From contig DYFC01000020.1 in assembly GCA_020725385.1 (NCBI GenBank), positions 1-33,125 on the forward strand: a stretch of DNA of 33,125 bases. The letters run 5' to 3'. The notes beneath the pieces are model-generated. The model made no database searches, was not told the DNA's origin, and saw nothing but the letters and a program-made list of their open reading frames with translations. Made by a program: the position numbers and the translations under genes. The stretch is from Nitrospira japonica (GTDB lineage Bacteria > Nitrospirota > Thermodesulfovibrionia > Thermodesulfovibrionales > SM23-35). Positions 1,872 through 33,125 of the stretch are shown piece by piece. Positions within the stretch are counted from its first letter, which is position 1, and each line of letters starts with the position of its first letter.

Positions 1872-1947
1872 ATATTAATTTATCCAAATTATGCAGACAT
1901 TTTCCGAATAGCATAAAGTGTAATAATTAAATCGTAAACTGTTATCT

Positions 1948-1979
1948 TGTCATTCTCTGGCTTGACCAGAGAATCCAGA
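1948..1979 (+). repeat. REP-like palindromic element (TGTC-9bp stem-CTTGA loop-CCAG)
   Basis: TGTC ATTCTCTGG CTTGA CCAGAGAAT CCAGA, with a perfect 9-bp stem. Same family as the copies at 19219, 19316, 21040 and 21086. Confidence 0.85.
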
Positions 1980-2023
1980 TTTTTATAGTTAAGCAAACCA
2001 TAAAAAGAAAGGAGGAAATTTTA

Positions 2024-4414: not shown

Positions 4415-4788
4415 ATGCTTTGGTAAATTATATAGCTGAAAAATATTTGAATGTAGCAGAAATAGGAATAGGACGCTATCCTGATGTAGCATATGGTCTT
4501 GTTTTAAAGGGAATTAATGTAATTGCCACTGATCTTTATCCCTTGAATTATAAAGGAGTAAAGTTCTTTGTTGATGATATTACAGAACCTGATATATCAA
4601 TTTATGATGGTGCAGGACTGATTTATTCAATTAGACCTGCACCAGAACTCGTTTTTTATATGAAAAAGCTTGCAAAAACTATTAAAGCTGATCTGATAGT
4701 CAAATCATTATCTTCTGAATTTCATGATGGAGAATTAAAGAGGAACAAAAGTATAAATTTTTATTTATGGGATTTCTATAAGATGTGA
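4411..4788 (+). CDS. UPF0146 family protein (methyltransferase-like fold, mostly archaeal)
   Basis: Motifs EIGIG, VIATD, DDITEPDISIY and LIYSIRPAPEL. ATGA overlap with ppsA. Confidence 0.8.
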   Translation: MNALVNYIAEKYLNVAEIGIGRYPDVAYGLVLKGINVIATDLYPLNYKGVKFFVDDITEPDISIYDGAGLIYSIRPAPELVFYMKKLAKTIKADLIVKSLSSEFHDGELKRNKSINFYLWDFYKM

Positions 4789-4806
4789 CTTAAAAAGGGT
4801 TTAAAA

Positions 4807-5655
4807 ATGAAAAAGTCAGAGACTATAAGTAGATCTTCTGAAGAAAAGAAAATCATTTATCTTGTTGGAGAAGGAACTGGCGAAACTATAACCAAAATAG
4901 CAAGAGCAGCACTTGCACAATTTCACAAAGAAAGAACCGAAGTTAAAACATTTTTTATGGTTCATGATGAACATTATATCTCGAGGATAATCAAACAAGC
5001 TTCAGAGGATGATGCTCTTGTTGCTTTTAGCATAGTTCAGCCTGACTTGAGAGATTTTTTAATTAAGGAGGCTGATAAAAGAGGTATCAAGGCAATAGAT
5101 GTTATTGGAAATTTTATTATTCAACTATCTTTATTTTTAAAGGAAAAACCTCTTGAGATACCCGGAAGACAGTATATTCTTGATGAAGATTATTTTAGAA
5201 GAATAGAAGCTATAAATTTTGCTGTAAAACATGATGATGGTAAACACCCGAATGGGTTGAAAATAGCTGATATAGTACTTGTTGGCCTGTCAAGGACAGG
5301 CAAAACCCCATTGTCAACATATCTTGCAAATCAAGGCTGGAAAGTCGCTAATGTGCCTGTTCATCCTGATATGGAAACACCTGAAGAATTATTTCAGATT
5401 GACCAGAAAAAAATATTCGCTCTAATTATAAGTGTTGAAAGTCTTGTAAAATTAAGAGAAGCAAGATTGGAGCAACTCGGACTTGAATCTGGAGCAAAAT
5501 ACGCTGATCCTGTTCAGGTCTCAAATGAAATTGATTGGTGCAATAATTACTTTAAGAAACATCCTAAGTGGCATGTAATAGATGTGTCCAATAAAGCTAT
5601 TGAAGAAGTTGCAGCAAGTATTGTTACTATCTATCAAAGGTTGAAAAAACATTAA
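4807..5655 (+). CDS. ppsR: PEP synthase/PPDK regulatory protein (DUF299), copy 2
   Basis: Motifs YFRRIEAINFAVKHDDG, GLSRTGKTPLSTYLA, KVANVP and DVSNKAIEE. Confidence 0.9.
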   Translation: MKKSETISRSSEEKKIIYLVGEGTGETITKIARAALAQFHKERTEVKTFFMVHDEHYISRIIKQASEDDALVAFSIVQPDLRDFLIKEADKRGIKAIDVIGNFIIQLSLFLKEKPLEIPGRQYILDEDYFRRIEAINFAVKHDDGKHPNGLKIADIVLVGLSRTGKTPLSTYLANQGWKVANVPVHPDMETPEELFQIDQKKIFALIISVESLVKLREARLEQLGLESGAKYADPVQVSNEIDWCNNYFKKHPKWHVIDVSNKAIEEVAASIVTIYQRLKKH

Positions 5656-7908: not shown

Positions 7909-8805
7909 ATGCGTTCGTTCAGAGAAATAAAAGAAGATTATTCATTTAAAGCAGAAGATGAAAATCGTCTTATGGCTTTAAAAGATATTATGGAGGAAAG
8001 TGCCGAGGAAGTAATTGGTGCATTGAATGTATGGATGATGAACACTAAAATAGCTGTCAGACTGCTTGGAGAAACGACAAAGCGTGAACATCTATACGAA
8101 GCTCAGAAAAAATGGTTTCTTGATTTGTTTTCAGGAAAATATGACAGCAGATATTATGAGAGGCTTATTCGAATAGGAATTGTGCATGTGAAAAATAATA
8201 TTGACGCTCATCTTATGAATAGAGCAATTAATATTATTAGAAATTCCTGCATCAATATTATCAATAGACAATGTAAAGATATTGAAGATACAACAAAGAA
8301 TATTATTTCTTTGGATAAAATACTTGATATTAATCTGGATGTTATTACCTCTTCATATATTGAAGAAGAAATAAGAACATATTCACCACTTTATAGAGTA
8401 AAAAGTGTACTTGTAGATTTCTCAGAGAAATTTGTGCAGAGCGCAAATCTTGTACTTGTGATTGCATTAATTGTATTAACTATTGGTGCAATAGGTCTAT
8501 TTGCCTTTGATCTAAAAAAACTTTTTTATGGTGACCTTGAAAGCGGAATTATATCTTCACTCGGCTCTTTATTGATCGTCTGGGTAATGATTGAATTAAT
8601 GAATACCGAAATATCTCACTTGAAAGGCGGTAAATTCAGAATAAGTATTTTTGTTAGTGTTGCACTTGTGGCAATAATAAGGGAAACTATGATTGCAACA
8701 CTTAAACACGAACAGACCGAGATCATGTACTATCTAATCGCATCAATTCTGGTAATCGGTTTTATTTACTGGCTTGTTATTAAAGGTGAAGAAAAGCTTA
8801 GATAA
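7909..8805 (+). CDS. Protoglobin/globin-sensor domain fused to a PsiE-family membrane domain
   Basis: N-terminal globin-like region (WFLDLFSGKYD...RIGIVHV with the proximal His, K.LD.NL). C-terminal 4 TM helices with PsiE-like IEL and ALVAIIRE motifs. Confidence 0.8.
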   Translation: MRSFREIKEDYSFKAEDENRLMALKDIMEESAEEVIGALNVWMMNTKIAVRLLGETTKREHLYEAQKKWFLDLFSGKYDSRYYERLIRIGIVHVKNNIDAHLMNRAINIIRNSCINIINRQCKDIEDTTKNIISLDKILDINLDVITSSYIEEEIRTYSPLYRVKSVLVDFSEKFVQSANLVLVIALIVLTIGAIGLFAFDLKKLFYGDLESGIISSLGSLLIVWVMIELMNTEISHLKGGKFRISIFVSVALVAIIRETMIATLKHEQTEIMYYLIASILVIGFIYWLVIKGEEKLR

Positions 8806-15920: not shown

Positions 15921-17771
15921 TTACAGCTCTGAAATAGTCCTGTATAATTCAGGATATTCATCTTTTGCAAGAGCGGATTCTTTTTTCAGTAGTCTCAAAG
16001 CTTCAGGAATATATTTTAAGAAATATTTCTTGCCTTTTACCATTGATAAATACCCGTAAGCTCCTAATGCCTGCATATGACGTTGTAAACGACAGTAGAT
16101 AACGGTGCCGGCTAAAAATTGGCCTGTTTGTCCGATATAATAATCCAGTAAATAATCTCTAATATTTTCATTAAGCCTGTAATATGGATCCCATAGAATC
16201 GAGGCAAGATCATAGGCTGGAGGACCAATCCTCGCTCCCTGATAATCTATAATTCCCGGAAAATTACTGCTCAATATCATGATATTCTGGGATTGAAAAT
16301 CACGATGAATAACTGTTTTGGGGAATGAATTAACTTTTAAAGCAAGTCTATGGAAATCTTCTTCAAGTGCTTGCAAATTTTTAATCTTTATTTTCATAAT
16401 TCCAGTCAAAAATCTTTCATAAAAATAATCCGTTTCCCATCTTAGATAGTCATAATCAAAAATTCTATGCTGGAGTGTAGGACATTCTGAAACATGTCCG
16501 GTAACGGTTGTATGTATTGAAATAAGGACATCAATAACTTTCTTATATATTTCTCTAATTGCTTCCTCATTTCGTGGACATTTTAGCCAGTTATACAAAG
16601 AGCAGTCTCCAAAATCTTCGAAATAAGCTGTCTTATTGGCAAAGTCTGCTCTAATTAATTCCGGAACAGGGACAGCATATTTTCTAAAGAATTCTGTATA
16701 TTCGATATGTCGTTGAAAATCCCGGTCATGATTTTTACATTTCATAAGTACAAATGACTTTTCTCCTTCTTTGATTCTGTAATATTGTCTGTCCGATCCG
16801 CCGGTACCTATCAATACCGGATTATTGTCCAGGAATAATTCCGGGATTTCTGTTGCTTTTAAGTCTATCTTAAACCCCGGCCCGATAATGCAATTTTCAT
16901 AATACGGCAAATAAAAATCAGCATCAGGAAGTACAATACAATTTTTCAAGCACATTTGCCGGACATGGAAATTTTCAAGGATTTTTTGTGGAGTTTCAAT
17001 AACTATGTATCCATTTAATTTTAGTTTGTCACAAGTACCAATTTTGGCGTTAATAAAAACCATTTCTCCAATTTTTTTAAGTTCCTCTATTATTGTTTTT
17101 GTATATAAAGCAGGGGTGCCGATATCATTCCATGAGCATCCTGTCACATCGTAGGTATTTATCCTGTATCCTGCTGAGATTATTTTTTCCCATGTATAAA
17201 CTATACTTGATACACCATCGGGAATGAATTTTAGTATATCCGGTGAATAAACAGAAATCCCTGTAAAAGCTACAAGACGTGAACCCGGTGGACAAGAAAG
17301 AGAGCCCATCCTTTTAATACTGCATAATAAGCCATTATTATCGATGACGAGATTGTTGAATTCGGGATGATTATGTACAGCAAGAGTTGCGATATTGCCA
17401 GAGGAAAGATGAAATTCTATGAATTTTTTCAAATCAATATCTGAATAAATATCAGAGTTGTGAACTAAAAAAGCACCATCTTTTAGAAATTCTTCTGCAT
17501 TCTTCAATGCTCCGCCGGTTCCGAGAACAGGATTTTCCGGGAAAAGGCTGATTGAACTAAAGCCGGATCTTTTTATCCATTCTTCAATAGATTCTTTTTT
17601 GTAATGCAGATTAATACCGGTTTTATTTACAGGAAGGTCTAAAATTTTCTCGAGTATTGACTGCAAAACGGGTTTTCCGAGAATCGGGAGCAATGGCTTG
17701 GGAATATAATTTGTTATTGGTGCGAGTCGTTCACCGAGTCCCGCAGCAAGAATAAAAGCCGAGAGTTTCAT
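15921..17771 (-). CDS. Fusion of MurU-like nucleotidyltransferase (N-term) and AmgK-like sugar kinase (APH family, C-term)
   Basis: N-terminal LAAGLGERLAPITNYIPKPL, LGTGGAL, NSD and WNDIGTP. C-terminal GGSDRQYYR, EDFGD, HRDFQSQN, IDYQG..IGP..YDLAS and LQRHMQALGAY. Confidence 0.85.
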   Translation of the reverse strand: MKLSAFILAAGLGERLAPITNYIPKPLLPILGKPVLQSILEKILDLPVNKTGINLHYKKESIEEWIKRSGFSSISLFPENPVLGTGGALKNAEEFLKDGAFLVHNSDIYSDIDLKKFIEFHLSSGNIATLAVHNHPEFNNLVIDNNGLLCSIKRMGSLSCPPGSRLVAFTGISVYSPDILKFIPDGVSSIVYTWEKIISAGYRINTYDVTGCSWNDIGTPALYTKTIIEELKKIGEMVFINAKIGTCDKLKLNGYIVIETPQKILENFHVRQMCLKNCIVLPDADFYLPYYENCIIGPGFKIDLKATEIPELFLDNNPVLIGTGGSDRQYYRIKEGEKSFVLMKCKNHDRDFQRHIEYTEFFRKYAVPVPELIRADFANKTAYFEDFGDCSLYNWLKCPRNEEAIREIYKKVIDVLISIHTTVTGHVSECPTLQHRIFDYDYLRWETDYFYERFLTGIMKIKIKNLQALEEDFHRLALKVNSFPKTVIHRDFQSQNIMILSSNFPGIIDYQGARIGPPAYDLASILWDPYYRLNENIRDYLLDYYIGQTGQFLAGTVIYCRLQRHMQALGAYGYLSMVKGKKYFLKYIPEALRLLKKESALAKDEYPELYRTISEL

Positions 17772-18985
17772 TTATATAATAAATATTTTTTACGGTATTT
17801 CTTGTTAAAATCCAAACATTCTTCCAGCCACCATTCTTCCATATCTTTGAGATTCATGCCTGTTTCAATTTCATTTCTAAGTCTGTCTGTTCCGGCAAGA
17901 ATATCAACTGGCAATTTAATGTATTCATATTCATATGGTGGCCTCTTCCATGAAAACTCTTTTGGATAAAGATCATATATTGTTTTTAGAATAGCGACCC
18001 CTGTCCTGAAAGGTTTGAATTTCTCTCTGTTAGTAACATGAATTTGTGCACCCCCGCATAGTTTGCCGGCATATTTATGAAATGCGGGTTCAAAGTACAT
18101 GGGTCTAAAAACAACTCCCGGAAGAGGTAGTTCTTTCAAATGTCCGGCCAGAGTATCCGGATCAATAAAGGGAGCACCAAATATTTCAAAAGGTCTTGTG
18201 GTTCCTCTACCTTCACTGATATTTGTTCCTTCAAGCAGGCACATTCCAGGATATACTAAAGCAGTATCCGGTGTAGGCATATTCGGAGAAGGAGGAACCC
18301 ATTTTAATCCGGTTTCATTGAACCATATATTCCTTTTCCAGTTTTTAACAGGAATAATATATAAATCAAGGTCAGGATAAAATTCATTTCTTAAATAATT
18401 TGCTATTTCACCGATAGTCATTCCATGACGAACCGGTAAAGGCTTGAGCCCTACAAAAGAAGCATATTCAGATTTAAGAACATTACCTTCTATTATATGA
18501 CCGCCGATGGGATTTGGCCTGTCGAGGACTACCACGGCTTTATTTATCCGGTTGCATGATTGTAAACACAAATCCATTGTCCAGATAAATGTATAATAAC
18601 GCGAGCCAATATCCTGAAGATCGATTATAAGCACATTTATATTGCTTAGCATCGAAGGAGTAGGTTGACGAACATCTCCATAAAGACTGTAAACCGGCAA
18701 TCCGGTCTTCTTGTCTATGAAACCCTGCCATTCTATCATATTGTCCTGTGTTTCACCATGAATACCGTGTTGAGGTCCAAACAAGGCTGTTATATTAAAG
18801 TTCCTGGATTTCAGGCATATCTCAATAGCGTGATTTAAATTTCTGTTTACAGAGGCAGGATGAATAAGCAAGCCGGCATCTGTTCCTTTTAGATTTTTAG
18901 GCCACTCCTTCTCTATAATATCGAGTCCTGTATAAACCGATTTATGTTTTATTTGCCTTTTCAATCTGTTTAACCCAATGCTCAA
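17768..18985 (-). CDS. namZ: Exo-beta-N-acetylmuramidase NamZ (DUF1343/YbbC family)
   Basis: Motifs LFGPQHG, YSLYG, DLQDIGSRYYTF, LDRPNP, RHGMTIGE, WVPPSPNMPT and EGTNISEGRGT.RPFE. The TTG start is uncertain. 4-nt overlap with the downstream fusion gene. Confidence 0.88.
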   Translation of the reverse strand: MSIGLNRLKRQIKHKSVYTGLDIIEKEWPKNLKGTDAGLLIHPASVNRNLNHAIEICLKSRNFNITALFGPQHGIHGETQDNMIEWQGFIDKKTGLPVYSLYGDVRQPTPSMLSNINVLIIDLQDIGSRYYTFIWTMDLCLQSCNRINKAVVVLDRPNPIGGHIIEGNVLKSEYASFVGLKPLPVRHGMTIGEIANYLRNEFYPDLDLYIIPVKNWKRNIWFNETGLKWVPPSPNMPTPDTALVYPGMCLLEGTNISEGRGTTRPFEIFGAPFIDPDTLAGHLKELPLPGVVFRPMYFEPAFHKYAGKLCGGAQIHVTNREKFKPFRTGVAILKTIYDLYPKEFSWKRPPYEYEYIKLPVDILAGTDRLRNEIETGMNLKDMEEWWLEECLDFNKKYRKKYLLYK

Positions 18986-23689: not shown

Positions 23690-26600
23690 TTATTTTTTGT
23701 TACCGCCTCTTGTAAGTGTACAGTTATTGCTTATAGTTGAATTGCCAATATAGCCTGTAAGCGTGACATTTATCTCATTGTTTGAGATAATATCTCCACT
23801 GATTGTGTCAATATTGTCAATAGATTTGCCGCTTATTTTTCTTCCATTTATTGTTCCTCTATATTTATCAACATCCACTTCTGCTTCAAAACTCGAACCA
23901 TTTTGGATTATTTTGACACTATAAGTGTCTCCACCTTTACATTTTGCAATCCATGTTCCTGAAAGATTTATTATTTCCCTTGTACCTTCAGTCGGGATTT
24001 TTATAACATCGTCTTTTTTCTCTTTTATTCTTGTTCCGGTCCAGTCACCTCCGCTAAGACTATCTCCATATCCCCATTTGCCCGAGATTGAGTTCCCATC
24101 GGGTGACAGTGTAAAAGTAACACGTCCGCCATCACGGGGTGGGGAGTAACTTGGAGCTTCAAGCCACATTCCATGCATTGTCTTTTTATCAGAAGACAAT
24201 GTTGCTTCAATTCTTCCTTTATCGTGAGTATAATTACCATAAACTTTTATGCCATCAATGGTAAATTCAAGCACACCCCAGTTTGTATTCCATTTACCCT
24301 CAAATCCTCTAACATAATTAATGTCTTCTTGAGATGCTCCTGTGCCTGTTTCAGTTTCTGTGACAGTCGTTGTGCCTGTAATCATGGATTCTATTTTTGC
24401 TATATGCTCTTCAAGCGCAGGGTCAGGCCAGTATTTAAGGCTTTCACGATATTTTGATATCGCATCACGGTATCTTTTTTGATTTTGGAAAATTGCTCCT
24501 TCATCTCTTAATTTCTGAGCTTTTACTTTCCTGCTATCAAGCTCTTTTACATAATTTGCTCTTTCATTGTTTGTCCAATATTTTATACTTTCTCTGAATT
24601 TATCAAGAGCCTTTGAAGGTTGTCCCTGATTGAACAAATTAGTTCCTTCTTTCCATAGTTCATCAGCTTTAGCTTTGTCAAAAATATTTTCTTCAATTTT
24701 TCTTATATGTTCTTCAAGCGCAGAATCAGGCCAGTATTTGAGGCTCTCATGATATTTTGATATTGCATCTTTTAATTTATTTTGGTTCTGTAATTTTTCT
24801 CCTTCTTCTCTAAGCTTTTTTGCTATTTCTTTATTTTTAGAAAGTGTTTTTTCTAAGTCTTTAACATATTTTTCTCTTTCTGAATTTGACCAGAATTTTA
24901 AACTTTCTTTGAGTTTATTTAGAGCTTCTGAATATTTCCTTTCACGGTATAAACCATCTCCTTCAGTCCATAAATTATCAGCAATAGCTTTGTTCTCTTT
25001 AGCTTTCCGGGCATTTTTTAATTTTTGTTCAAGACGTGCTTTAAATATCTGCGAATCCGTATTATTTGGCTGAAGATCAACCATCTCCTGAGCGTCTCTT
25101 AATGCGTTCTCAATGATTTCTATTGATAATGGTTTTTCATCCATTGCAGCGCTTCTTACACCTGGAAGCAGTTCTTTAAGCCTTTTGTCTTTAGCAACAC
25201 AATCCTGGTATTTATTGTAATATTTCGCATAAATAGGATCATTAATATCTCCATAATCCCGTATAGCCTTAAGACCTTCAAAATAAGCATCAGCAGCCTG
25301 TGAATATAGATATGTCCTCAGGAATTCATCTCCGGCTATAAACAAATTCATCGCATGATTTTTTGCTGAACGTATCTTATTCCATTTTTCAAGCTCTGAA
25401 ATTAGCTCTATAATCTTTTCTCTTCGTGGATCAGTTTTCATAAAGTATTGTGGTTTGTTTTTAAGTTCACCAAGCATTCCATATGCCTGTTCTTTATCTC
25501 CCTTTTCAAATATTGATTTAACATTCTGATAGTATTGCCATGCCTGATTGCGCTCTGCAATTTTTTGTTTTGCAAAATCAAGATTTCCTTCCCATATTTT
25601 TTGTTCGGCAGGAGTATGTTCTCTCTTTAAGACTTCTTTAACATGAGTAAGCATGCCATCCCAGTCCATCACATCATAAAATCCTTGATGTTTTTTAAGA
25701 GACTCCTGTATGAATTGATTATATTCTTCATTTGCTTTATTCCATCGCATATTCAAATCTTGAGAAAATTTATTTGCCATCTGTCCTGGCATTTCTTGCT
25801 GCAAGTCTTGTATATCAAGTATCTTTTTATATGCTGAGACAATCTTTTTCTCATCAATAAGATTTTCAAATTCTTTTGCTTTATTTTCAACTTGAGGCCA
25901 GATTTTCTTAAATTTGTTAGTCTTTTCAAGCTTCTCTTTTGCATCATTGTCTTTAGGAGCAAATTTAACGGCTGCTTTTAATAGTTTCAAACCTTTATCA
26001 AAGTCTCTTTCATAAACAGCATCCCAGCCGAGTTTTTTAATTTCCTGAGAAAATTTTTGTAAAGAAGATGATTCAGGGTCAGATTTTGCTGCATCTTCAG
26101 CAAGTTCAATCGCTTCATCTATTTTCCCCTGATTAAGTAATTCGAAAGCTTTTGAAAGATTGTTTTTGCTTTTCTCTGCTTCCTCTATTTTTTTCTGCGA
26201 GTCCTTTAGAGTTTTCTCAGATATTGTAATATTTAAAGATTTTGAATCAGAACCGAGAAGTATGCCCTTTGAATCATTTATCTGAACTGTAATATTAAAC
26301 GTTCCTGTGCTGCTGCAGTTTAAAGTAATCTGATCTCCTGAGCCTGGAATTCCACATATTCCGTCGGGTTGCACACTCCATTTATAGCGCAAATCGCTTT
26401 TGGAAACTTCGGGAGAAATTTGAGCCTCCATATAGATATTATGATGAACTGCAAACTGGTCGCTTACTTCAACCATACCGCATTTCTGTGCTCCGCCAGG
26501 TTGTGTGTCACATTTCCACAATTTTGGTTTCGAAGCAGCATAATGTGGCTCTGTTATAGTAACTTTATAGGGTGCAACCTGATATTCTTCTGTTAGCGCA

Positions 26601-29600
26601 CCGCCAATCAAATCATTGTTTGATTTGCTTTTTGGCTGTACGAGCAATTTAAAAGGTTTTGCATCCTTAGGAACAAAACCAATAACACTTGAATTCTCAA
26701 CATATTCCATGCGGTTGGAAGATTCAGGATAATCCCAATAATAGTAAATAAGCTCATCTTTAATTTTTGGCTCTGTGATTAAAGTAACCTTAATCTCCTG
26801 CCCAACTCTTCCTTTGCCTTTTTCCGGTTCAAATGTCCACTTGAATTTTGGCGGTAACACTTTTACCTCTATCTGATCGGCTTCGCCAACTGTTTCATAA
26901 ATACTTCCACTTACATTCTGCTGAATTTCAGCCCATATTTTGATTTTATTATCACGTCCCATCTGATCGAATAATATATCGGTTTTACCATCTTCACTCG
27001 TTGAAGGATAAAAACTGATTGCTGGTTCGGATTGCCATATTACCCTGTATTGACCGGCTTTTTTTGTTTTTCCTGAAGTAAAACTAATTGTCTTACCATC
27101 TTCTGTTTTTGCCTGAACAGAAACCTTCTGCTTCCATGTCCCGAAGATAACTTCCTTTGGAAGACCTGTTATGATTCCTGTGACACCTCCAACTTTCAGG
27201 ACAATACTTGCCTGACCTCTGCTTCCTGTTACATCTGTAACTTCAACAGAAAGTGTATGTTCTCCGGGCTTCATAGACATAAATGTTACTGTCTCGCCTT
27301 TGCCCGAATAATTGCCTTTCCATTCATAAGTGAATGGTGCTTTACCACCTTTCACTTCAGCAGTTACATTTGTTGATTCTTCACGTTTTAATATAGTTTT
27401 ATTTGCTTTGAGAGTTACACTCAGCTTTGTTTGATCAGATACAACTCCATCAACTGAACCGCAGGAACTTGAATAAGCCCATGGAAGTACAGGAGGAGAT
27501 GGAATAGGGTCAGGAAGATTCAATTTTGTTCTTAATGCTTCAATTTCATTCACATATTCTTTATACATGCTCCATGTAATATAGTCCTGATAATTCTTTA
27601 AAACCTTAGATTCTTTAACTTCGCTTAACTTTCCTTTAAGTTCCTGCTGGTGTTCTCTATGTGGTTTTGAAATCTGCTCATAGCATTTAAATTCTTCATA
27701 TGACATAGGATCTGCCAATCTTGCAGCTTCCTCTGCGCGTGCCTGATCTGCTGCACTGCATGGTTTATCTTCCTTAATAACATTAATCAAAACCATTTCA
27801 CCTGTGAGAGGGTCGGGTTTACTTTCTTTAACTACATACGGCCCGCAATTACCAATTGATTTTCTTATTTCTTCAACTTTTTTCTGGCACGTATCATCAC
27901 ATTGTGGATATGCGCCGGAAGCAGCTTTTTTAAGTACTGTCTTACGTATTTCTTTTTCAGCCTTAGTATGGGTCTTTTTATCTAACTCTATAAGAGCTTC
28001 AAGATAATCAGGTATTTGTTCAAGCCATTTGTATTTTTTTTCAGCAAGAGTCTTCAAATCTTCTGTCTTTGTTTTTTCACCTGTTTTATCATCAGGTTTG
28101 GTTCCATCTTTTTCTTTTCCCTTTACAAAAATCTGTGCCACTGCTTCGCCTGTTCTTCCTTTTTCATCTCTAACTTCACAGACAACAGGAACAAGGTTTT
28201 CACGTCCTTTACCAGAAAATTTCAAAGTTATACTGTTAATACCAGGCTTTTGAGTAACATTATTGAAAGTAAGCCTTCCGCTGTCAGGAAAAGGCTTTGC
28301 AGTGCATATGATTTCTCTAATATCTTCCTGGGTAATAGTGTCCCTTTCAGGCTTAACAGTAACTTCAAGTTTCAATCTATCCTCAGCAGAAATGACTTTT
28401 ACAGGAGAAGTTTCAGCCTCTGCTTTTCTTCCATATTTATCGCTTACTATGACTTTCAGAGTGATGTAGCTTCCGGATTTTCCTGCTCCTGATACACTGC
28501 TACATTTTGAGGTTTGATTGGGTCTCCAGAATTTGTCATCTTTCTCAAACCATTCAAATTTATATTTATCAACAGGCTCCCCTGGTTTTATTGAAGGATT
28601 TTCAACGCAAACAACAAGATTCTCTGCATCTGTTATTGATGAAGGTATTTCTCCGAATTGTATTTTTATTTCATCCGAAGATATAACTTTCAGATATTTT
28701 TCAGCTTGCCCATCACGAAGCATCTGTTTGAAAGTCTTGCTTTTAGAATTATCATCAATGTCCTGCACATATAAAACAAGCTTTACTTCATCATTTTCAG
28801 AAAATTCTCTACTATCTATAATTAGAGATGATTCATTTCTTTTTCCTTTAATTTCTCTTTCTCTGCCATTAACAAAAAGATTCCACTGATAGCGCATTCT
28901 GCCACTATCGGATTTTCTGATTACATCTGACTTGAAAGTTATTAATTGTTCATCAATTTTTATAACTTCTTTTTCTTCAGGAAGTATTTTAACAGTCAAC
29001 CCTTTTTTATCTGTAACTTTGATAGAGATATAGGAAATGTCTGTGTAGCCAGTGTCAGTTTTGGCTCTAACGCCAATTTTTACATCCTGACCTTTTCTGC
29101 CTTTGCCATAGAATTTGTAAGTATCTCCGGTTTCCTTTGAATCTCTTTTATCGTCAATAAACCAGATATATTCTTTTATTTTTTCCCTGCCTGAATAGTT
29201 TTCATCGGGTTTTACTTTTATTATTGATATTTCATCTTCCTGAATTTCCTTATGGTCAGCCGTGACCATAAGTTTTATTTTAGGGCATTTTTCAGAAGGT
29301 AGAACATTTATCTTTTTGTCCTTGAAAATATCTAATTCAGAATCTTTAGAAGGTCTTACTGTAAATCTCAATGTGTGTTGTCCTGAATATTTCGGAACCC
29401 ATTCAGCTTTTACATTTCCAACAGGATTTATCTCTTCTGTCATGTAGCCAAAACTTTCCCATTTTGTAAAGCATTCAGGGCATTCTCTGTCTAATCTTGC
29501 TGTGAGAATAACCGGAGAGCCTTCACATATAGTGTCAGGCTCGATAAAAATATCCTCTATTGCAATTATGGTCGATTTATTCTTTAAATCATTCAGCGCT

Positions 29601-32600
29601 TTTTCATACGCTTCACTGTATTCTTTTTCTCTTTTTGTGCCCTTATAGTATTCCCGACAAACTGCAGCCTGTATTAATGGAGTTAAGATTTCTTTATTTG
29701 AATTTTTTCCGCCAATAATTTTTAATGCTTCATTAGATGCTTTACTGATAGCGCTTCTTAATTCATTGTCTTTCTTTTGGATCTTTTCTAACAATTTATT
29801 AATTGAGTCTGTGCTGCATTTTGGCATGAAGTCCGAAATCCATCTGTAATAATCATTTTCATCTTCTTCTTTGAAATCTGCTCTCTTTAAATTAATGCAA
29901 TCAATATTCCATTCATCAACAATATCTTTTACGATTCCGCTGTTATATTTTTTAAGCTGATTATAATTATTTATTATTGTCTGGAATCTCTCAGCATCAT
30001 CCCTTATATCTTCTGTAGATTTATCAGGTCCAAGAACATAACTTTTCCATGAAGGACTTTTTGAATATTCAACAAGATGATAGGTACAGTTCAATTCTTT
30101 TTCTATTTTAATTATTTCAGCATAGCTTGTTCCCGATGCCCAGCCTTTAGCTATTTCAAGCTTTTCCACGAGTCCTCTGAAATATTCAAGAACAACATCA
30201 TCAACTTTTTTCCTGTAAAGATTGTATATCTCTTCACCATATTTACTCCCGCGTGTATCATATTTATATGGGAATTCTCCCATCTGTCCTGAAGAGATTG
30301 ATTTATTTGAAAGCATTTCCTGAAGCTGTACTAATACAGGATGATTTTTTATCTGGGGAATAATTATATGATAAACTCCGGGGCATGTTTTTGGTATATT
30401 TAAAATATCTTCTTTTTTGTTGAGAAATATTTCATCGCCTGAAGGGCATTTATATTTTAAGCTCACAATTTTCCATTTCTTGCCTTCTCTTTCAAACTGA
30501 GCTCCTTTGAAAATTTCATCGATCATCTCATCATATTGCCACTTATTGTATTTATCAATTCCCCATTCTGCTGTTCCCCTAACCATTCCATAGATGCCCT
30601 CAGGCACTGCTGTTAAAGGACAGAAAAGATATGCTGTCTCAATAAGTAATCTGCCGTAACTACCCATGACTAAGGCTTCAGTGGCAGCATATCCTGGAAG
30701 TCTCCTTGACATCAATTCAAAGCCAAGATTTACAAAACCTTCTGACCATGTTTCGGCATTCATTATTGCATCCCAGTATGCTTTACCCTCCATCGCAAGA
30801 TTGATTCCTTTATACATCGTGCTGTTGCCAATTTTCCCGAGAATAGAATCATTTAATGCTTGATTAATTTCAGGAACAGGCAAAGGATTATTAATCTGCC
30901 ATTTTTTATCTTTTGATCTTACGAATTCAAGAACTTTCTTTGAACGTAATTGTTCAATAGTATGGTTATCAAGCACATCAAGGAAATTATTGAATGCATC
31001 AATTTGCTGATCAACCTTGTTATACATTGAAGAAATTCTTATCCACGCGATCGCAAGCCATGTTTTTGCAGCTCTTGGATTGTCAAGCATATTCTTCATT
31101 AAATCAGCAAGACGTTTCTGTTCTTCAGCAGGCAGGGAAGATTTCTTCCGGTTGAAATATTCTGCCAGCTTTTTCATAACTTCATAAGCTCGTTCAGGAA
31201 AAGGGACAGATTCATCACCGCCTTTAAAAGCCCGATATTCATTTTCAAGGTCATTCAATAATTTTAGTTTTTCAGCATCCTGTTCTTCAGGTGTAAGTTT
31301 TTTCTCAGCAAGCATTATTCTTGCGTTTATTCCTTCATTTATATTATGGATAATCACTTCCTGTGAACGTTTTGCGATTTCACTTAAGGCTTCCTCTGGA
31401 TTAGTAAACCAGTTTGCATCACCTACAAGATCTCCTGTTCTTTTCATTGTCAGCCATAAGGCAATTTCAGGGTTTATACCTTTCATCTGTTTAAGATTGG
31501 TTATCATAGCTGCAAAATTTATTATTGGAGCATCCTTTGTAACAGTAGAAGCATTTGCAGCTTTCATGATTTTATTATGTTCGCCTGCGCTTCTATTTAA
31601 GTATTTACACATCTTGATAATTTTTTCATGGACTGCAAGATTTGAATCAATTGCATCAGAGGTTATATGTCTCAGAAATTCAAGACTTATGCCTGGCTCC
31701 ATATCATACTTTGGCTCAGGAGTTGATTTTTCTGATAATATTTCAGCGAGCCTGTCAGGCTCTCCCCTACTCATTCCAACATTATTTTTCAAAACAGCAA
31801 ATGCTACTGCTTTCTCTGTTTCATTTGCTTCCCTTGAACTTAAAGAACCATCTTTTTCATTCCTTTGTATTACATACATCTTCCCCCGCCTGATAGCATC
31901 AATCTCAGCCCAATCAGCGCCGTAATCTCCAATATATACAGCATAGGTAGCAGCCCTATGAGCTGTTGCAAGAGCATCAACAGCCACCATATCCATATTG
32001 AAAAATCTAACAACTTCGCTCTCAAACATATCCCTAATTATCTTTGCCTGTTCAACATCAAGCATTATTATAGTGAAATCAATATCACCTTCAAAGCGCA
32101 TTTTTTCGAGAGGCTCTGATACCCATCCTCCGACATCCATTCTAAAGATAGGCGGGCTGTCAGGATGCTCGCTCATATAACGTCTGGCAACACTCTCCCA
32201 CAATTTGATTACATTATCACGCCTGAATCTCATAAGATTCTGCTCTAAGGATTTGAAGTTATCATTCCAGTATTGGATAGCTTTTCTATAATCACCTGTC
32301 TCTTTTATCTTTTGATTGATTACATCAGCTTTGAATGATACAAGATCTTTTATTGAAATCTTTATATCGCCATCTCCCATTTTTCTGAAAAAATCTATTT
32401 CGCTCTTATTTGTTTTATATTCTTCAAATAATGACATAATCTTTTCTGCTTTTGGAGACAATGGAGGAGCAGGCTTTTCCCCTGTCTTTATTCTTCTTCC
32501 GCCTGTTTTATCAATTGTAATGACTGCTTTTTCTGTCCAGTCAATGGCTCTGATAGTTGCCCCTACTATTACATCAACCATGTCTCCTTTGAGATTTTCA

Positions 32601-32866
32601 AGCTTGCAAGAAAGTTCAGTACCGCCTTCTTTACATTTAAGCAAAGGGTCAATTTCCCATAATATTCTGCTTCCAGAAGGTGCATTTTCAACTTTTATTG
32701 TGAATGGACTTTTAACTTTAACCGATGTTTCAGGAAAGACTAATTTTGGGTCCTGTGCATATACAAATGTTGGAGAAAAAAGAAATGCAATTAATAATGA
32801 GAGTAAAATAGAAGAAAATTTTGCTTTGATAATTCCTGTAGAAGGTTTAATGTATGAAAAATTCAT
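23690..32866 (-). CDS. Giant (3058 aa) predicted secreted multidomain protein: NTase-like motif, helical/hydrophobic region, Ig/PKD-like domains, TPRs, C-terminal beta domains
   Basis: Uninterrupted 9.2-kb ORF with GGGGG RBS and a signal peptide ending FVYA|QD. Contains PKD-like segments (GGKAPFTYEW, YKWSV, VEVTD..G), TPR-like helices and C-terminal GKWNTNWG/ISGKW/NLSGTW beta repeats. Confidence 0.85.
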   Translation of the reverse strand: MNFSYIKPSTGIIKAKFSSILLSLLIAFLFSPTFVYAQDPKLVFPETSVKVKSPFTIKVENAPSGSRILWEIDPLLKCKEGGTELSCKLENLKGDMVDVIVGATIRAIDWTEKAVITIDKTGGRRIKTGEKPAPPLSPKAEKIMSLFEEYKTNKSEIDFFRKMGDGDIKISIKDLVSFKADVINQKIKETGDYRKAIQYWNDNFKSLEQNLMRFRRDNVIKLWESVARRYMSEHPDSPPIFRMDVGGWVSEPLEKMRFEGDIDFTIIMLDVEQAKIIRDMFESEVVRFFNMDMVAVDALATAHRAATYAVYIGDYGADWAEIDAIRRGKMYVIQRNEKDGSLSSREANETEKAVAFAVLKNNVGMSRGEPDRLAEILSEKSTPEPKYDMEPGISLEFLRHITSDAIDSNLAVHEKIIKMCKYLNRSAGEHNKIMKAANASTVTKDAPIINFAAMITNLKQMKGINPEIALWLTMKRTGDLVGDANWFTNPEEALSEIAKRSQEVIIHNINEGINARIMLAEKKLTPEEQDAEKLKLLNDLENEYRAFKGGDESVPFPERAYEVMKKLAEYFNRKKSSLPAEEQKRLADLMKNMLDNPRAAKTWLAIAWIRISSMYNKVDQQIDAFNNFLDVLDNHTIEQLRSKKVLEFVRSKDKKWQINNPLPVPEINQALNDSILGKIGNSTMYKGINLAMEGKAYWDAIMNAETWSEGFVNLGFELMSRRLPGYAATEALVMGSYGRLLIETAYLFCPLTAVPEGIYGMVRGTAEWGIDKYNKWQYDEMIDEIFKGAQFEREGKKWKIVSLKYKCPSGDEIFLNKKEDILNIPKTCPGVYHIIIPQIKNHPVLVQLQEMLSNKSISSGQMGEFPYKYDTRGSKYGEEIYNLYRKKVDDVVLEYFRGLVEKLEIAKGWASGTSYAEIIKIEKELNCTYHLVEYSKSPSWKSYVLGPDKSTEDIRDDAERFQTIINNYNQLKKYNSGIVKDIVDEWNIDCINLKRADFKEEDENDYYRWISDFMPKCSTDSINKLLEKIQKKDNELRSAISKASNEALKIIGGKNSNKEILTPLIQAAVCREYYKGTKREKEYSEAYEKALNDLKNKSTIIAIEDIFIEPDTICEGSPVILTARLDRECPECFTKWESFGYMTEEINPVGNVKAEWVPKYSGQHTLRFTVRPSKDSELDIFKDKKINVLPSEKCPKIKLMVTADHKEIQEDEISIIKVKPDENYSGREKIKEYIWFIDDKRDSKETGDTYKFYGKGRKGQDVKIGVRAKTDTGYTDISYISIKVTDKKGLTVKILPEEKEVIKIDEQLITFKSDVIRKSDSGRMRYQWNLFVNGREREIKGKRNESSLIIDSREFSENDEVKLVLYVQDIDDNSKSKTFKQMLRDGQAEKYLKVISSDEIKIQFGEIPSSITDAENLVVCVENPSIKPGEPVDKYKFEWFEKDDKFWRPNQTSKCSSVSGAGKSGSYITLKVIVSDKYGRKAEAETSPVKVISAEDRLKLEVTVKPERDTITQEDIREIICTAKPFPDSGRLTFNNVTQKPGINSITLKFSGKGRENLVPVVCEVRDEKGRTGEAVAQIFVKGKEKDGTKPDDKTGEKTKTEDLKTLAEKKYKWLEQIPDYLEALIELDKKTHTKAEKEIRKTVLKKAASGAYPQCDDTCQKKVEEIRKSIGNCGPYVVKESKPDPLTGEMVLINVIKEDKPCSAADQARAEEAARLADPMSYEEFKCYEQISKPHREHQQELKGKLSEVKESKVLKNYQDYITWSMYKEYVNEIEALRTKLNLPDPIPSPPVLPWAYSSSCGSVDGVVSDQTKLSVTLKANKTILKREESTNVTAEVKGGKAPFTYEWKGNYSGKGETVTFMSMKPGEHTLSVEVTDVTGSRGQASIVLKVGGVTGIITGLPKEVIFGTWKQKVSVQAKTEDGKTISFTSGKTKKAGQYRVIWQSEPAISFYPSTSEDGKTDILFDQMGRDNKIKIWAEIQQNVSGSIYETVGEADQIEVKVLPPKFKWTFEPEKGKGRVGQEIKVTLITEPKIKDELIYYYWDYPESSNRMEYVENSSVIGFVPKDAKPFKLLVQPKSKSNNDLIGGALTEEYQVAPYKVTITEPHYAASKPKLWKCDTQPGGAQKCGMVEVSDQFAVHHNIYMEAQISPEVSKSDLRYKWSVQPDGICGIPGSGDQITLNCSSTGTFNITVQINDSKGILLGSDSKSLNITISEKTLKDSQKKIEEAEKSKNNLSKAFELLNQGKIDEAIELAEDAAKSDPESSSLQKFSQEIKKLGWDAVYERDFDKGLKLLKAAVKFAPKDNDAKEKLEKTNKFKKIWPQVENKAKEFENLIDEKKIVSAYKKILDIQDLQQEMPGQMANKFSQDLNMRWNKANEEYNQFIQESLKKHQGFYDVMDWDGMLTHVKEVLKREHTPAEQKIWEGNLDFAKQKIAERNQAWQYYQNVKSIFEKGDKEQAYGMLGELKNKPQYFMKTDPRREKIIELISELEKWNKIRSAKNHAMNLFIAGDEFLRTYLYSQAADAYFEGLKAIRDYGDINDPIYAKYYNKYQDCVAKDKRLKELLPGVRSAAMDEKPLSIEIIENALRDAQEMVDLQPNNTDSQIFKARLEQKLKNARKAKENKAIADNLWTEGDGLYRERKYSEALNKLKESLKFWSNSEREKYVKDLEKTLSKNKEIAKKLREEGEKLQNQNKLKDAISKYHESLKYWPDSALEEHIRKIEENIFDKAKADELWKEGTNLFNQGQPSKALDKFRESIKYWTNNERANYVKELDSRKVKAQKLRDEGAIFQNQKRYRDAISKYRESLKYWPDPALEEHIAKIESMITGTTTVTETETGTGASQEDINYVRGFEGKWNTNWGVLEFTIDGIKVYGNYTHDKGRIEATLSSDKKTMHGMWLEAPSYSPPRDGGRVTFTLSPDGNSISGKWGYGDSLSGGDWTGTRIKEKKDDVIKIPTEGTREIINLSGTWIAKCKGGDTYSVKIIQNGSSFEAEVDVDKYRGTINGRKISGKSIDNIDTISGDIISNNEINVTLTGYIGNSTISNNCTLTRGGNKK
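24390..24995 (-). repeat. Intragenic tandem duplication of a ~100-aa double-TPR unit
   Basis: KA.AD.LW.EG...YVK.L...A.KLR.EG...QNQ....DAISKY.ESLKYWPD.ALEEHI.KIE occurs twice. The near-identical DNA blocks starting at 24401 and 24704 are offset by 303 nt. Confidence 0.85.
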
Positions 32867-32986
32867 AATAGCCCCCTGAAAGTATTTAAAATTACTTTAA
32901 TGTATCATAATAAGGGAGAATATATAAATCTTAATTTTCAGGTTCGACAACGTGAATCTTTCAATCTTATAGTCTATTATTTAAAA

Positions 32987-33125
32987 AGCAGAGAGCAAAG
33001 AGCAACGAACAAAAGTGCGTGAAACGTAAAGTGTAAAGAATAGGATGTGAACTGTAAAAGCGTAAAATGTGAAAGCGTAAAACGTGTGCACGAGAGTACG
33101 TAAAGCATAAAACGTAAGTTGTGAA
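32987..33125. repeat. Degenerate 7-8-nt tandem repeats (AGCAGAG/AGCAAAG, then CGTGAAA/CGTAAAA/TGTAAAG)
   Basis: Visible heptamer periodicity running to the window end, in non-coding sequence. Confidence 0.7.

What the first reader, a model, noticed from the sequence alone, without database searches (positions are those of the whole stretch)
23690..32866. Giant secreted protein with a toxin-like layout
Seen (approximate boundaries): signal peptide, small Ig-like domain, NTase-motif region (~aa 240-330), long helical region, Gly/Ala-rich hydrophobic stretch (~aa 690-770), Cys-containing helical region, many Ig/PKD-like beta domains (~aa 1100-2210), TPR array, Thr-rich linker, and C-terminal GxW beta-barrel-like domains. 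Inference: the order enzyme-translocation-stalk-binding recalls large AB-type or polymorphic toxins, or else an enzymatic surface adhesin. I recognise no named family for the whole protein. No immunity gene or dedicated exporter is evident in the window, although the upstream context is cut off.
Basis: partly seen in the sequence, partly recalled or inferred. Interest (0 to 1): 0.75.

Follow-up and report, generated by a model that had tools for sequence, protein, structure and literature searches.

The report
Giant exported protein with nucleotidyltransferase head
This 3058-residue exported bacterial protein carries, at its front end, a previously unannotated enzyme domain of the nucleotidyltransferase type on a long stalk of repeat domains, a layout shared by a sparse family of giant proteins in many phyla whose role (toxin-like effector or surface enzyme) is still open.

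Summary
The ORF is real: window 23690-32866 (-), 3058 aa. It has full-length relatives at 40-85% identity. A Sec-type signal peptide (aa 1-37) is followed by a conserved head of about 800 aa.

Downstream come at least six PKD-like domains, a TPR array, a Thr-rich linker and beta-rich C-terminal modules.

The family has 128 clusters. Nearly all are giant proteins, and 95 of 103 have a hydrophobic N-terminus. C-terminal domains vary: WSC in the own-genome paralog, Laminin_G_3 elsewhere. The head was not found in 40 of 40 nearest relative genomes.

No immunity gene, exporter, protease or proven translocation domain was found. The enzyme head is supported. The toxin reading stays plausible but unproven.

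The parts
23690..32866 (-). Whole ORF, 3058 aa
   Evidence: ORF list and translation. Twelve relatives of 2252-3404 aa show 40-85% identity over aa 130-1100.
32756..32866 (-). Sec-type signal peptide, aa 1-37 (predicted cleavage VYA|QD)
   Evidence: Hydropathy 2.09 over 19 aa and motif position. A hydrophobic N-terminal stretch lies before the head in 95 of 103 family members. Cleavage is inferred.
32477..32755 (-). Small beta-rich N-terminal domain, aa 38-130 (Ig-like by sequence pattern only)
   Evidence: The alternating pattern and two Cys residues (78, 87) are seen in the translation and family consensus. The fold was not modelled.
31292..32374 (-). Nucleotidyltransferase head, aa 165-525: two long helices, an alpha/beta NTase core (aa ~235-350) and a helical-bundle lobe (aa ~390-525)
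32072..32140 (-). Catalytic motif MDVGGW-x10-FEGDIDFT, aa 243-265 (hG[GS]-x13-DhDh)
   Evidence: G246 is kept in 121/122 members, W248 in 118/121, D261 and D263 in 121/121. In the model GG ends strand beta1 (aa 240-245) and DxD opens strand beta2 (aa 262-267).
31949..31981 (-). Third carboxylate block VDALATAHRAA, aa 296-306 (D297, T301, H303)
   Evidence: D297 is kept in 120/122 members, T301 in 122/122, H303 in 107/122. D297 immediately precedes strand beta3 (aa 298-302) in the model.
31589..31702 (-). Conserved polar residues of the helical lobe, aa 389-426 (MEPGISLEFLRH ... K418, K421, Y422, R425, S426)
   Evidence: P391, E396, R399 and H400 are kept in 117/117 members, K421 in 115/115, R425 in 114/114. 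A role in NTP or acceptor binding is inferred.
29567..31291 (-). Conserved helical region of the head, aa 526-1100, including module 2 (aa ~610-800) and a Cys-containing part
   Evidence: Model of aa 130-1100 with mean pLDDT 87.2. Module 2 is found in 75 of 91 long family members. No structural match was listed outside the NTase part; this region was not searched as a separate model.
30557..30799 (-). Mildly hydrophobic, Gly/Ala-rich conserved block, aa 690-770
   Evidence: Maximum hydropathy is 1.26 at aa 740-758. Modelled as helices at pLDDT 65-72. Conserved motifs are seen. Membrane insertion is not shown.
26237..29566 (-). Beta-rich stalk, aa 1101-2210, with at least six PKD-like domains and a non-PKD insert at aa ~1580-1810
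   Evidence: Pfam PKD E 5.1e-08 with 2 stretches. The iterated HMM finds 6 domains.
24383..26224 (-). Helical/TPR array, aa ~2215-2828
   Evidence: Pfam TPR_2 E 3e-11 (aa 2734-2762). TPR_16 and TPR_14 hits lie at aa 2240-2269.
24332..24382 (-). Thr-rich linker, aa 2829-2845
   Evidence: Seen in the translation and located by position.
23693..24331 (-). C-terminal beta-rich modules with G-x-W motifs, aa 2846-3058 (module 1 ~2846-2950, module 2 ~2965-3058)
   Evidence: No Pfam hit. Module 1 recurs in shorter proteins that carry FHA, DUF642 or SLH domains. The fold was not modelled.

Best explanation
The gene encodes a Sec-exported, modular 'enzyme on a stalk'.

**Shown.**
- The protein has a signal peptide.
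- It has a conserved head whose core is a Pol-beta-superfamily nucleotidyltransferase of the two-lobed ANT/MNT type, with all three catalytic carboxylates kept.
- A second conserved helical module travels with that enzyme domain.
- A PKD/TPR stalk follows.
- The C-terminal beta modules are swapped for lectin-type domains in relatives.

**Inferred.**
- The head transfers a nucleoside monophosphate from an NTP onto a hydroxyl group of a protein, sugar or nucleic-acid acceptor.
- The variable C-terminal end targets the protein to a surface glycan.
- NTPs are essentially confined to cytoplasm, so the most likely site of catalysis is inside another cell. On that reading the protein is a large toxin-like effector of environmental anaerobes, and module 2 is the candidate delivery part.

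**My odds.**
- Exported protein with an NTase-fold head: about 0.8.
- The head is catalytically active: about 0.65.
- It acts as a delivered toxin or effector: about 0.3.
For: **Gene and export.** The ORF has full-length homologues. A signal peptide is present here, and 95 of 103 family members have a hydrophobic N-terminus.

**Catalytic residues.** G246, D261, D263 and D297 are kept in 120-121 of 121-122 members. In a model of pLDDT 94 they sit at the end of beta1, the start of beta2 and just before beta3.

**Structural matches.**
- Other NTases appear among weaker rows: Cid1, HI0073, DrrA, ANT(4'), MntA, GlnE and a cGAS-like receptor.
- Foldseek weak rows also include DrrA, CdnC, CdnE, MntA and FAM46A.
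- hhalign against 31 PF01909 proteins puts GG on GS and DID on DID (P 0.0059).

**Family features.**
- The head is the best-conserved part, at 0.46-0.70 mean identity against 0.22-0.49 downstream.
- Module 2 co-occurs with the NTase head in 75 of 91 long members.
- C-terminal ends vary: WSC in the own-genome paralog and Laminin_G_3 in 2 of 17 scanned members.
- Distribution is sporadic. The head was found in 0 of 40 nearest relative genomes, yet named members come from several phyla.
Against: **Weak recognition of the head.**
- No sequence library recognises it.
- Foldseek found no match at E <= 0.001.
- The hhalign probability is only 6%.

**Toxin features missing.**
- No translocation, pore-forming or autoprocessing domain was recognised.
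- The aa 690-770 block is only mildly hydrophobic.
- No immunity gene or dedicated exporter lies next to the gene, here or in the closest relative.
- No neighbour is conserved across the 14 loci.

**Conservation.** The head is 40-54% identical across phyla, which also fits a housekeeping-like extracytoplasmic role.

The acceptor and the NTP are unknown.
Confidence: 0.45

Rival explanations
1. It is a surface- or matrix-bound enzyme-adhesin of the producer. The protein stays on or near the cell, and the C-terminal lectin-type modules bind its own or foreign polysaccharide. The head then modifies an extracellular or periplasmic substrate, using extracellular nucleotides or another phosphoanhydride donor. 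No delivery into another cell is involved.
For: - PKD, TPR, WSC and Laminin_G_3 domains are typical of surface proteins.
- The C-terminal module also occurs with an SLH domain.
- No immunity gene, exporter, protease or translocation domain was found.
- The head is strongly conserved across phyla.
- Three secretin genes in the genome could provide an outer-membrane route. This point is inferred.
Against: NTase-fold enzymes normally need NTP and divalent metal, and the extracytoplasmic space lacks them (established knowledge, not tested here). The sporadic distribution, 0 of 40 nearest relatives, argues against a core envelope function.
Confidence: 0.3
2. It is a periplasmic or envelope-spanning scaffold whose NTase-like head is a ligand-binding or regulatory domain (a pseudo-enzyme). 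The conserved acidic residues would bind metal or nucleotide without transfer chemistry.
For: - Fold matches to true NTases are only middling.
- TPR and PKD arrays are classic scaffolds.
Against: The complete triad and about 20 further polar residues are near-invariant over 114-122 diverged sequences. That pattern is what is expected of an active site, since pseudo-enzymes usually lose at least one catalytic carboxylate.
Confidence: 0.15
3. The effector activity is a HEPN-type RNase in the helical lobe. This protein has R425-x4-H430 there, and the NTase core would act as its regulator, as in MNT-HEPN pairs.
For: - R425-x4-H430 is present here, and H430 is invariant in the 13 close relatives.
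Confidence: 0.05

Closest known systems
Aminoglycoside/lincosamide nucleotidyltransferases ANT(9)/AAD(9), ANT(3'')(9)/AadA, ANT(4'), LinB
   Same: - Both have a two-lobe build, a Pol-beta NTase core plus a C-terminal helical bundle.
- 3jyy_A LinB is also listed.
- The hG[GS]...DxD...D motif order is the same.
   Different: - Those enzymes are cytoplasmic and stand alone at about 250 aa. This head is exported and fused to about 2500 further residues.
- Sequence identity is 6-13%.
- There is no Pfam match.
- Two extra long N-terminal helices carry the invariant E208 and R215.
- rmsd is 5-6 Å.
Minimal nucleotidyltransferases (MNT, PF01909) of MNT-HEPN toxin-antitoxin pairs, e.g. MntA-HepT
   Same: - The catalytic motif aligns in register in hhalign.
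- The chemistry of that family is AMPylation of a hydroxyl, going by the PDB titles.
   Different: - Here the two parts are fused and exported.
- hhalign probability is 6%.
- Rx4-6H is kept in only 23 of 114 members.
- There is no toxin-antitoxin gene pair.
DrrA/SidM and GlnE-type protein adenylyltransferases
   Different: The structural scores are weak. DrrA is delivered by a type IV system and has no Sec signal peptide (recalled). There is no sequence-level match.
Large single-chain AB toxins such as large clostridial toxins (compared by layout only)
   Same: The order is the same: N-terminal enzyme, a conserved middle part with a hydrophobic block, then C-terminal repeat or binding region. 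This resemblance is recalled and was not tested by any search.
   Different: - The enzyme here is an NTase and not a glycosyltransferase.
- No cysteine-protease domain, CROP repeats or recognised delivery domain are present.
- No sequence or structural match to such toxins appeared in any search.

Membership tests
Pol-beta-like nucleotidyltransferase superfamily | hG[GS] motif at the end of the first core strand | tested here: met
   V245-G246-G247. G246 is kept in 121/122 members. Strand beta1 spans aa 240-245 in the model.
Pol-beta-like nucleotidyltransferase superfamily | [DE]h[DE]h on the second core strand, 9-13 residues after G[GS] | tested here: met
   D261-I262-D263-F264 lies 13 residues after G247. 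Both Asp are kept in 121/121 members. Strand beta2 spans aa 262-267.
Pol-beta-like nucleotidyltransferase superfamily | Third carboxylate on the third core strand | tested here: met
   D297 is kept in 120/122 members. It directly precedes strand beta3, aa 298-302.
Pol-beta-like nucleotidyltransferase superfamily | Significant fold match to solved NTases | tested here: inconclusive
Pol-beta-like nucleotidyltransferase superfamily | Sequence-profile match to a curated NTase family (e.g. PF01909) | tested here: inconclusive
   No Pfam or NCBIfam hit at E <= 10 and E <= 1 respectively. hhalign against 31 PF01909 proteins gives P 0.0059 and probability 6%, with the motifs in register.
Pol-beta-like nucleotidyltransferase superfamily | Metal-dependent nucleotidyl transfer | not testable with these tools
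   This needs an enzyme assay.
ANT(3'')/ANT(9)/KNTase-type two-domain nucleotidyltransferases | NTase core followed by a helical-bundle lobe that completes the active site | tested here: inconclusive
ANT(3'')/ANT(9)/KNTase-type two-domain nucleotidyltransferases | Small cytoplasmic stand-alone enzyme | tested here: not met
   The domain is part of a 3058-aa protein with a signal peptide. The family head lies at the N-terminus of proteins mostly 1200-3700 aa long.
HEPN RNases | Conserved Rx4-6H motif | tested here: not met
   R425-x4-H430 is present here, but only 23 of 114 family members keep it.
Polymorphic toxin systems (CDI, Rhs, MafB-like) | C-terminal variable toxin domain followed by a cognate immunity gene | tested here: not met
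   The enzyme domain is N-terminal and conserved. The next gene downstream is a convergent VanZ gene here and in the closest relative. No downstream gene is conserved in the 14 loci.
Large clostridial-type AB toxins | N-terminal glycosyltransferase, cysteine-protease domain, delivery domain, CROP repeats | tested here: not met
   None of these Pfam families hit the protein. The enzyme fold here is an NTase. The region that could be a delivery domain was not searched as a separate model.
Type I-secreted RTX or repeat adhesins | No N-terminal signal peptide, plus C-terminal RTX or secretion signal | tested here: not met
   An N-terminal signal peptide is present. There is no RTX or related Pfam hit.

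The most novel reading that the evidence does not exclude
This protein is a founding member of an undescribed class of very large, Sec-exported, single-chain AB-type toxins of environmental anaerobes. The class spans Nitrospirota, Desulfobacterota, Planctomycetota, Synergistota and others. Its warhead is an ANT/MNT-like nucleotidyltransferase that nucleotidylates a target inside another cell. The co-conserved helical module 2 (aa ~610-800) would be a new kind of delivery domain, and the swappable lectin-type C-terminal modules would set target range.
Probability: 0.2. Interest if true: 0.85.

Novelty: new variant of a known kind. Interest (0 to 1): 0.6.

Why it matters
Nucleotidyltransferase-fold enzymes are known as cytoplasmic enzymes, toxin-antitoxin parts and injected effectors. 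A conserved one at the tip of a 2000-3700-residue Sec-exported protein is not covered by any family model I could search.

Public records call these proteins only 'hypothetical', 'TPR repeat' or 'PKD domain-containing'.

- **If the head is active outside the cytoplasm**, it raises the question of where its NTP comes from.
- **If it acts inside other cells**, it defines a new large-toxin architecture in uncultured sediment, groundwater and hot-spring bacteria.

Either way, a defined motif set (G246, D261, D263, D297, E396, R399, H400, K421, R425) and a confident model make the question directly testable.

Tried and rejected
**Searches that found nothing useful**
- PDB sequence search with the head found only noise at E 0.94. 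A profile search hit only coiled-coil proteins in the downstream consensus.
- The ESM Atlas gave no usable hit with aa 130-1100. With aa 165-525 it gave unnamed Chloroflexota clusters at 0.93 and NTP_transf_2 clusters at 0.89-0.90, which I treat as leads only.
- PADLOC gave 0 families. NCBIfam gave only sub-threshold noise.
- Foldseek on the 971-residue model returned mostly long helical repeat proteins.
- VIA searches on that model were dominated by model residues 255-447. The folds of aa ~575-1100 therefore remain effectively untested.
- BFVD gave no match at E <= 0.001.

**Context and synteny**
- A linked operon was rejected. DUF4384, Gly-zipper, caspase and TPR genes precede the homologue in 3 of 14 loci. 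In the own genome that set lies mid-contig on C62 and is followed by an unrelated gene.
- A DAHP-synthase-like gene lies upstream in the closest relative. In the own genome its best match (57% identity) is mid-contig on C58. What lies upstream here is therefore unknown.
- A same-genus synteny search with the downstream flank found only short 66-76% matches and settled nothing.

**Other attempts**
- My self-BLAST for internal repeats printed nothing. I replaced it with the iterated HMM.
- The promoter scan was at chance level, 35 sites against 37.4 expected.
- For sequencing runs, no RNA holder was listed. I did not lay reads.
- Earlier findings of this scan were not open to the session.

**Literature**
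- Three narrow full-text searches found no description of this family.
- I saw only the listings and abstract starts and read no paper, so this is not evidence that the family is unpublished.
Full report
**1. The observation**

The window is one whole contig (C14) of a 2.46-Mb, 71-contig genome, so nothing lies beyond base 33125 in this assembly.

- The minus strand carries a single ORF from 32866 to 23690. It starts with ATG and encodes 3058 aa.
- G+C is 0.31-0.38 across the gene, like the rest of the window.
- The N-terminus has a basic stretch, then a 19-residue window of hydropathy 2.09, then VYA|QD at aa 35-39. There is no lipobox Cys. This is a Sec-type signal peptide; cleavage is inferred.
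- Apart from the signal peptide, no stretch exceeds 1.26 on the same scale. No transmembrane segment is therefore evident.

**2. What curated libraries see**

- Pfam recognises only TPR repeats (TPR_2 E 3e-11, TPR_16 over its cut-off, within aa 2240-2815) and PKD (E 5.1e-08, two stretches, best at aa 2138-2201).
- NCBIfam has nothing near a cut-off.
- PADLOC has nothing.
- The first ~1100 residues get no hit even at E <= 10 when scanned as pieces.

**3. The family**

A word-indexed search with aa 130-1100 found 14 proteins at E <= 0.001 among 7995 scored candidates, the query included.

- Twelve of them, 2252-3404 aa long, are 40-85% identical over 96-100% of the region.
- One carries a source name, from a Thermodesulfovibrionales MAG.

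An exhaustive phmmer search over 1.84 billion cluster representatives found 128 proteins at E <= 0.001. Of these, 107 were at <= 1e-10 and 35 at <= 1e-30. Most are 1200-3700 aa long, and the short ones mostly end inside the match.

Along P0001 the most conserved part is aa 151-950, with mean column identity 0.46-0.70 and a peak at aa 251-400. Downstream identity is 0.22-0.49 with many gaps.

An HMM of aa 190-450 finds the domain in the fetched set always near the N-terminus. Of the 103 members that start with M and have at least 60 residues before the domain, 95 have a 12-residue window of hydropathy >= 2.0 ahead of it. Export therefore looks like a family trait.

**4. The enzyme head: sequence motifs**

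These residues are near-invariant across the aligned family:

| Residue | Kept in |
|---|---|
| E208, R215 | 119/119 each |
| G246 | 121/122 |
| W248 | 118/121 |
| D261, D263 | 121/121 each |
| D297 | 120/122 |
| T301, V310 | 122/122 each |
| P391, E396, R399, H400 | 117/117 each |
| K421 | 115/115 |
| Y422 | 113/115 |
| R425 | 114/114 |

V-G246-G247, 13 residues, then D261-I-D263-F, then D297 is the hG[GS]-x9-13-DhDh...D signature. I recall this signature as the definition of the Pol-beta nucleotidyltransferase superfamily.

**5. The enzyme head: models**

Two AlphaFold models were made from natural-sequence alignments.

- aa 130-1100, from 54 sequences: mean pLDDT 87.2, pTM 0.56.
- aa 165-525, from 56 sequences: mean pLDDT 94.0, pTM 0.89.

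In the second model GG ends strand beta1 (aa 240-245), DxD opens strand beta2 (aa 262-267) and D297 precedes strand beta3 (aa 298-302). A helix lies between each pair of strands, and a helical bundle follows from aa ~390 to 525.

**6. The enzyme head: fold searches**

- Foldseek found no match at E <= 0.001.
- NTases nevertheless recur among its weak rows: DrrA (prob 0.51), CdnC, CdnE, ANT(4'), MntA (prob 0.72), FAM46A, and a viral Pol-beta NTase and a viral RelA/SpoT protein.
- With VIA-align the best matches covering both lobes are the following:

|---|---|---|---|---|
| 6xxq_A | AAD(9) | 7.5 | 197 of 248 | 5.3 |
| 5g4a_B | AadA | 7.3 | 205 of 262 | 6.3 |
| 7uy4_B | ANT-3,9 | 7.1 | 204 of 257 | 5.4 |

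- Lower rows are Cid1 (5.3), HI0073 (5.3, 96 of 102 residues), DrrA (5.2), ANT(4') (5.0), MntA (4.5, 124 of 124 residues) and GlnE (4.5).

**7. The enzyme head: profile comparison and verdict**

I ran a profile-profile comparison in the script box. It set the family's NTase region against 31 PF01909 proteins taken from related genomes.

- It aligned 44 columns, with GG on GS and DID on DID.
- P was 0.0059 and probability 6%. The register is right but the support is weak.

Taken together, I read the head as an NTase-fold enzyme of the two-lobed ANT/MNT kind (about 0.8), probably active (about 0.65). The grounds are the motif, its placement on the predicted strands, its invariance, and the consistent identity of the weak structural matches.

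An HEPN-type Rx4-6H motif is present here (R425-x4-H430). Only 23 of 114 members keep it, so I do not treat it as the family's function.

**8. The rest of the head**

aa 526-1100 is mostly helical with two small sheets.

- A second block (module 2, aa ~610-800) is detected in 75 of 91 long members that carry the NTase domain.
- That stretch is conserved but only mildly hydrophobic (1.26) and is modelled at pLDDT 65-72.
- No structural match was listed for it.
- A translocation role is therefore neither shown nor excluded.

**9. Stalk and C-terminal end**

- An HMM seeded on the two Pfam-detected segments and iterated four times over the 13 close relatives finds six PKD-like domains in P0001. 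Other beta-rich parts stay unassigned.
- The TPR array, the Thr-rich linker (aa 2829-2845) and the G-x-W motifs are in the sequence.
- The first C-terminal module recurs in 17 shorter proteins. Some of these carry FHA, DUF642 or SLH domains, so it is a mobile module with no Pfam model.
- Among 17 diverse family members scanned, 11 have PKD, 3 have TPR families, 2 have a C-terminal Laminin_G_3 domain, and none has any NTase Pfam family.
- The own genome holds a paralog on contig C9. It is 2393 aa long with 27% identity in the head, and it ends in a WSC domain.
- The pattern is therefore a conserved head with swappable, lectin-type ends.

**10. Context**

In the window the gene is followed by a convergent VanZ gene. 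Around it lie LuxR-type regulator, glycosyltransferase, cell-wall recycling, cytochrome c maturation, NrfAH and PEP synthase genes. Only 259 bases lie upstream before the contig ends, and they include short tandem repeats.

In the closest relative (86% identity) the downstream genes are the same. The upstream gene is a divergent DAHP-synthase-like gene. The own genome's best match to that gene lies elsewhere.

Among 14 loci from species-representative genomes, no neighbour is shared beyond close kin. The genomes are Nitrospirota/Nitrospiraceae, Syntrophaceae, Lentisphaeria, Planctomycetia and Desulfarculia MAGs. The local patterns are:

- Three loci have DUF4384, Gly-zipper, caspase and TPR genes upstream.
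- Three have a tandem giant paralog.
- Three have a MORN-TPR gene, one of them also with a patatin gene.
- One has a transglutaminase gene.

The caspase set exists in the own genome but is unlinked. I found no immunity gene and no dedicated exporter. The genome does encode three secretins.

**11. Distribution**

- The head was found in 1 of 41 genomes searched. That one is the own genome, with two copies. None of the 40 nearest relatives has it, including 5 of the same genus and 24 in all of the same family.
- Named members elsewhere come from Synergistaceae, Chitinophagaceae and Hyphomicrobiales MAGs. They are annotated only as hypothetical, TPR or PKD proteins.
- Near-identical DNA occurs in metagenome runs of 11 studies. 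No RNA run was listed.

**12. Mechanism**

Shown:
- The protein is exported and has a conserved NTase-fold head.
- Module 2 is co-conserved with that head.
- A PKD/TPR stalk follows.
- The C-terminal ends vary among relatives.

Inferred:
- The head moves an NMP from an NTP onto a hydroxyl acceptor.
- The C-terminal end targets a glycan.
- Because NTPs are scarce outside cells, catalysis most plausibly happens in another cell's cytoplasm, which gives a toxin-like effector (about 0.3).

The main rival is a surface or matrix enzyme-adhesin of the producer (about 0.3). A non-catalytic scaffold comes next (about 0.15), and a HEPN-type activity is least likely (about 0.05).

**13. Comparison and novelty**

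The head works like, and probably descends from, the ANT/MNT branch of Pol-beta NTases. I do not file it in any curated family, because sequence-model membership was not met.

It is not a polymorphic toxin, since the enzyme is N-terminal and there is no immunity gene. It is not a large clostridial-type toxin, since it has a different enzyme, no protease and no CROP repeats. It is not a type I adhesin, since it has a signal peptide.

I rate it a new variant of a known kind: a known catalytic fold in an undescribed, exported, giant architecture.

Three narrow literature searches found no description. I saw listings only and read no paper.

Noticed in passing
G000 contig C9 = L015:6847-14028 (-): A second family member in the same genome. 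It is 2393 aa long, has a signal peptide, a head 27% identical to this one, PKD and TPR domains, and a C-terminal WSC (carbohydrate-binding) domain.
   Followed up: partly
L002, L003, L010 upstream of the homologue; own genome C62:26573-30051: A four-gene set (DUF4384 protein, glycine-zipper protein, caspase-like Peptidase_C14 protein, TPR protein) sits just upstream of the giant gene in three related MAGs. In the own genome it lies mid-contig and is unlinked.
   Followed up: partly
L006:3385-9555, L007:544-9552, L008:1612-9519: In three Syntrophaceae or delta-proteobacterial MAGs a second giant paralog (2056-3002 aa) lies directly upstream on the same strand.
   Followed up: no
window 31580-31594 (aa 425-430): R425-x4-H430 resembles the HEPN Rx4-6H motif and lies in a helical lobe that structurally resembles HEPN domains. 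H430 is kept in the 13 close relatives, but only 23 of 114 family members have the motif.
   Followed up: partly
window 32983-33086 and L056:50-115: Short tandem repeats (periods 7, 8 and 15) lie at the contig end upstream of the gene. Other short repeats lie at the start of the closest relative's contig. They may be why both assemblies break there.
   Followed up: no
window 7909-8805 (+): One ORF fuses a protoglobin domain to a PsiE (phosphate-starvation-inducible) membrane domain.
   Followed up: no
window 15921-18985 (-): An NTP_transferase-APH fusion gene lies next to a NamZ exo-muramidase gene, which looks like a MurNAc recycling pair. The naming of the pathway is recalled.
   Followed up: no
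window 1062-5655 (+): Two Kinase-PPPase (PEP synthase regulatory protein-type) genes flank ppsA and a UPF0146 gene.
   Followed up: no
P0146, P0148, P0149, P0152: The first C-terminal beta module of this protein (aa ~2846-2950) is a mobile domain without a Pfam model. It is also found joined to FHA, DUF642 ('choice-of-anchor C') and SLH domains.
   Followed up: no
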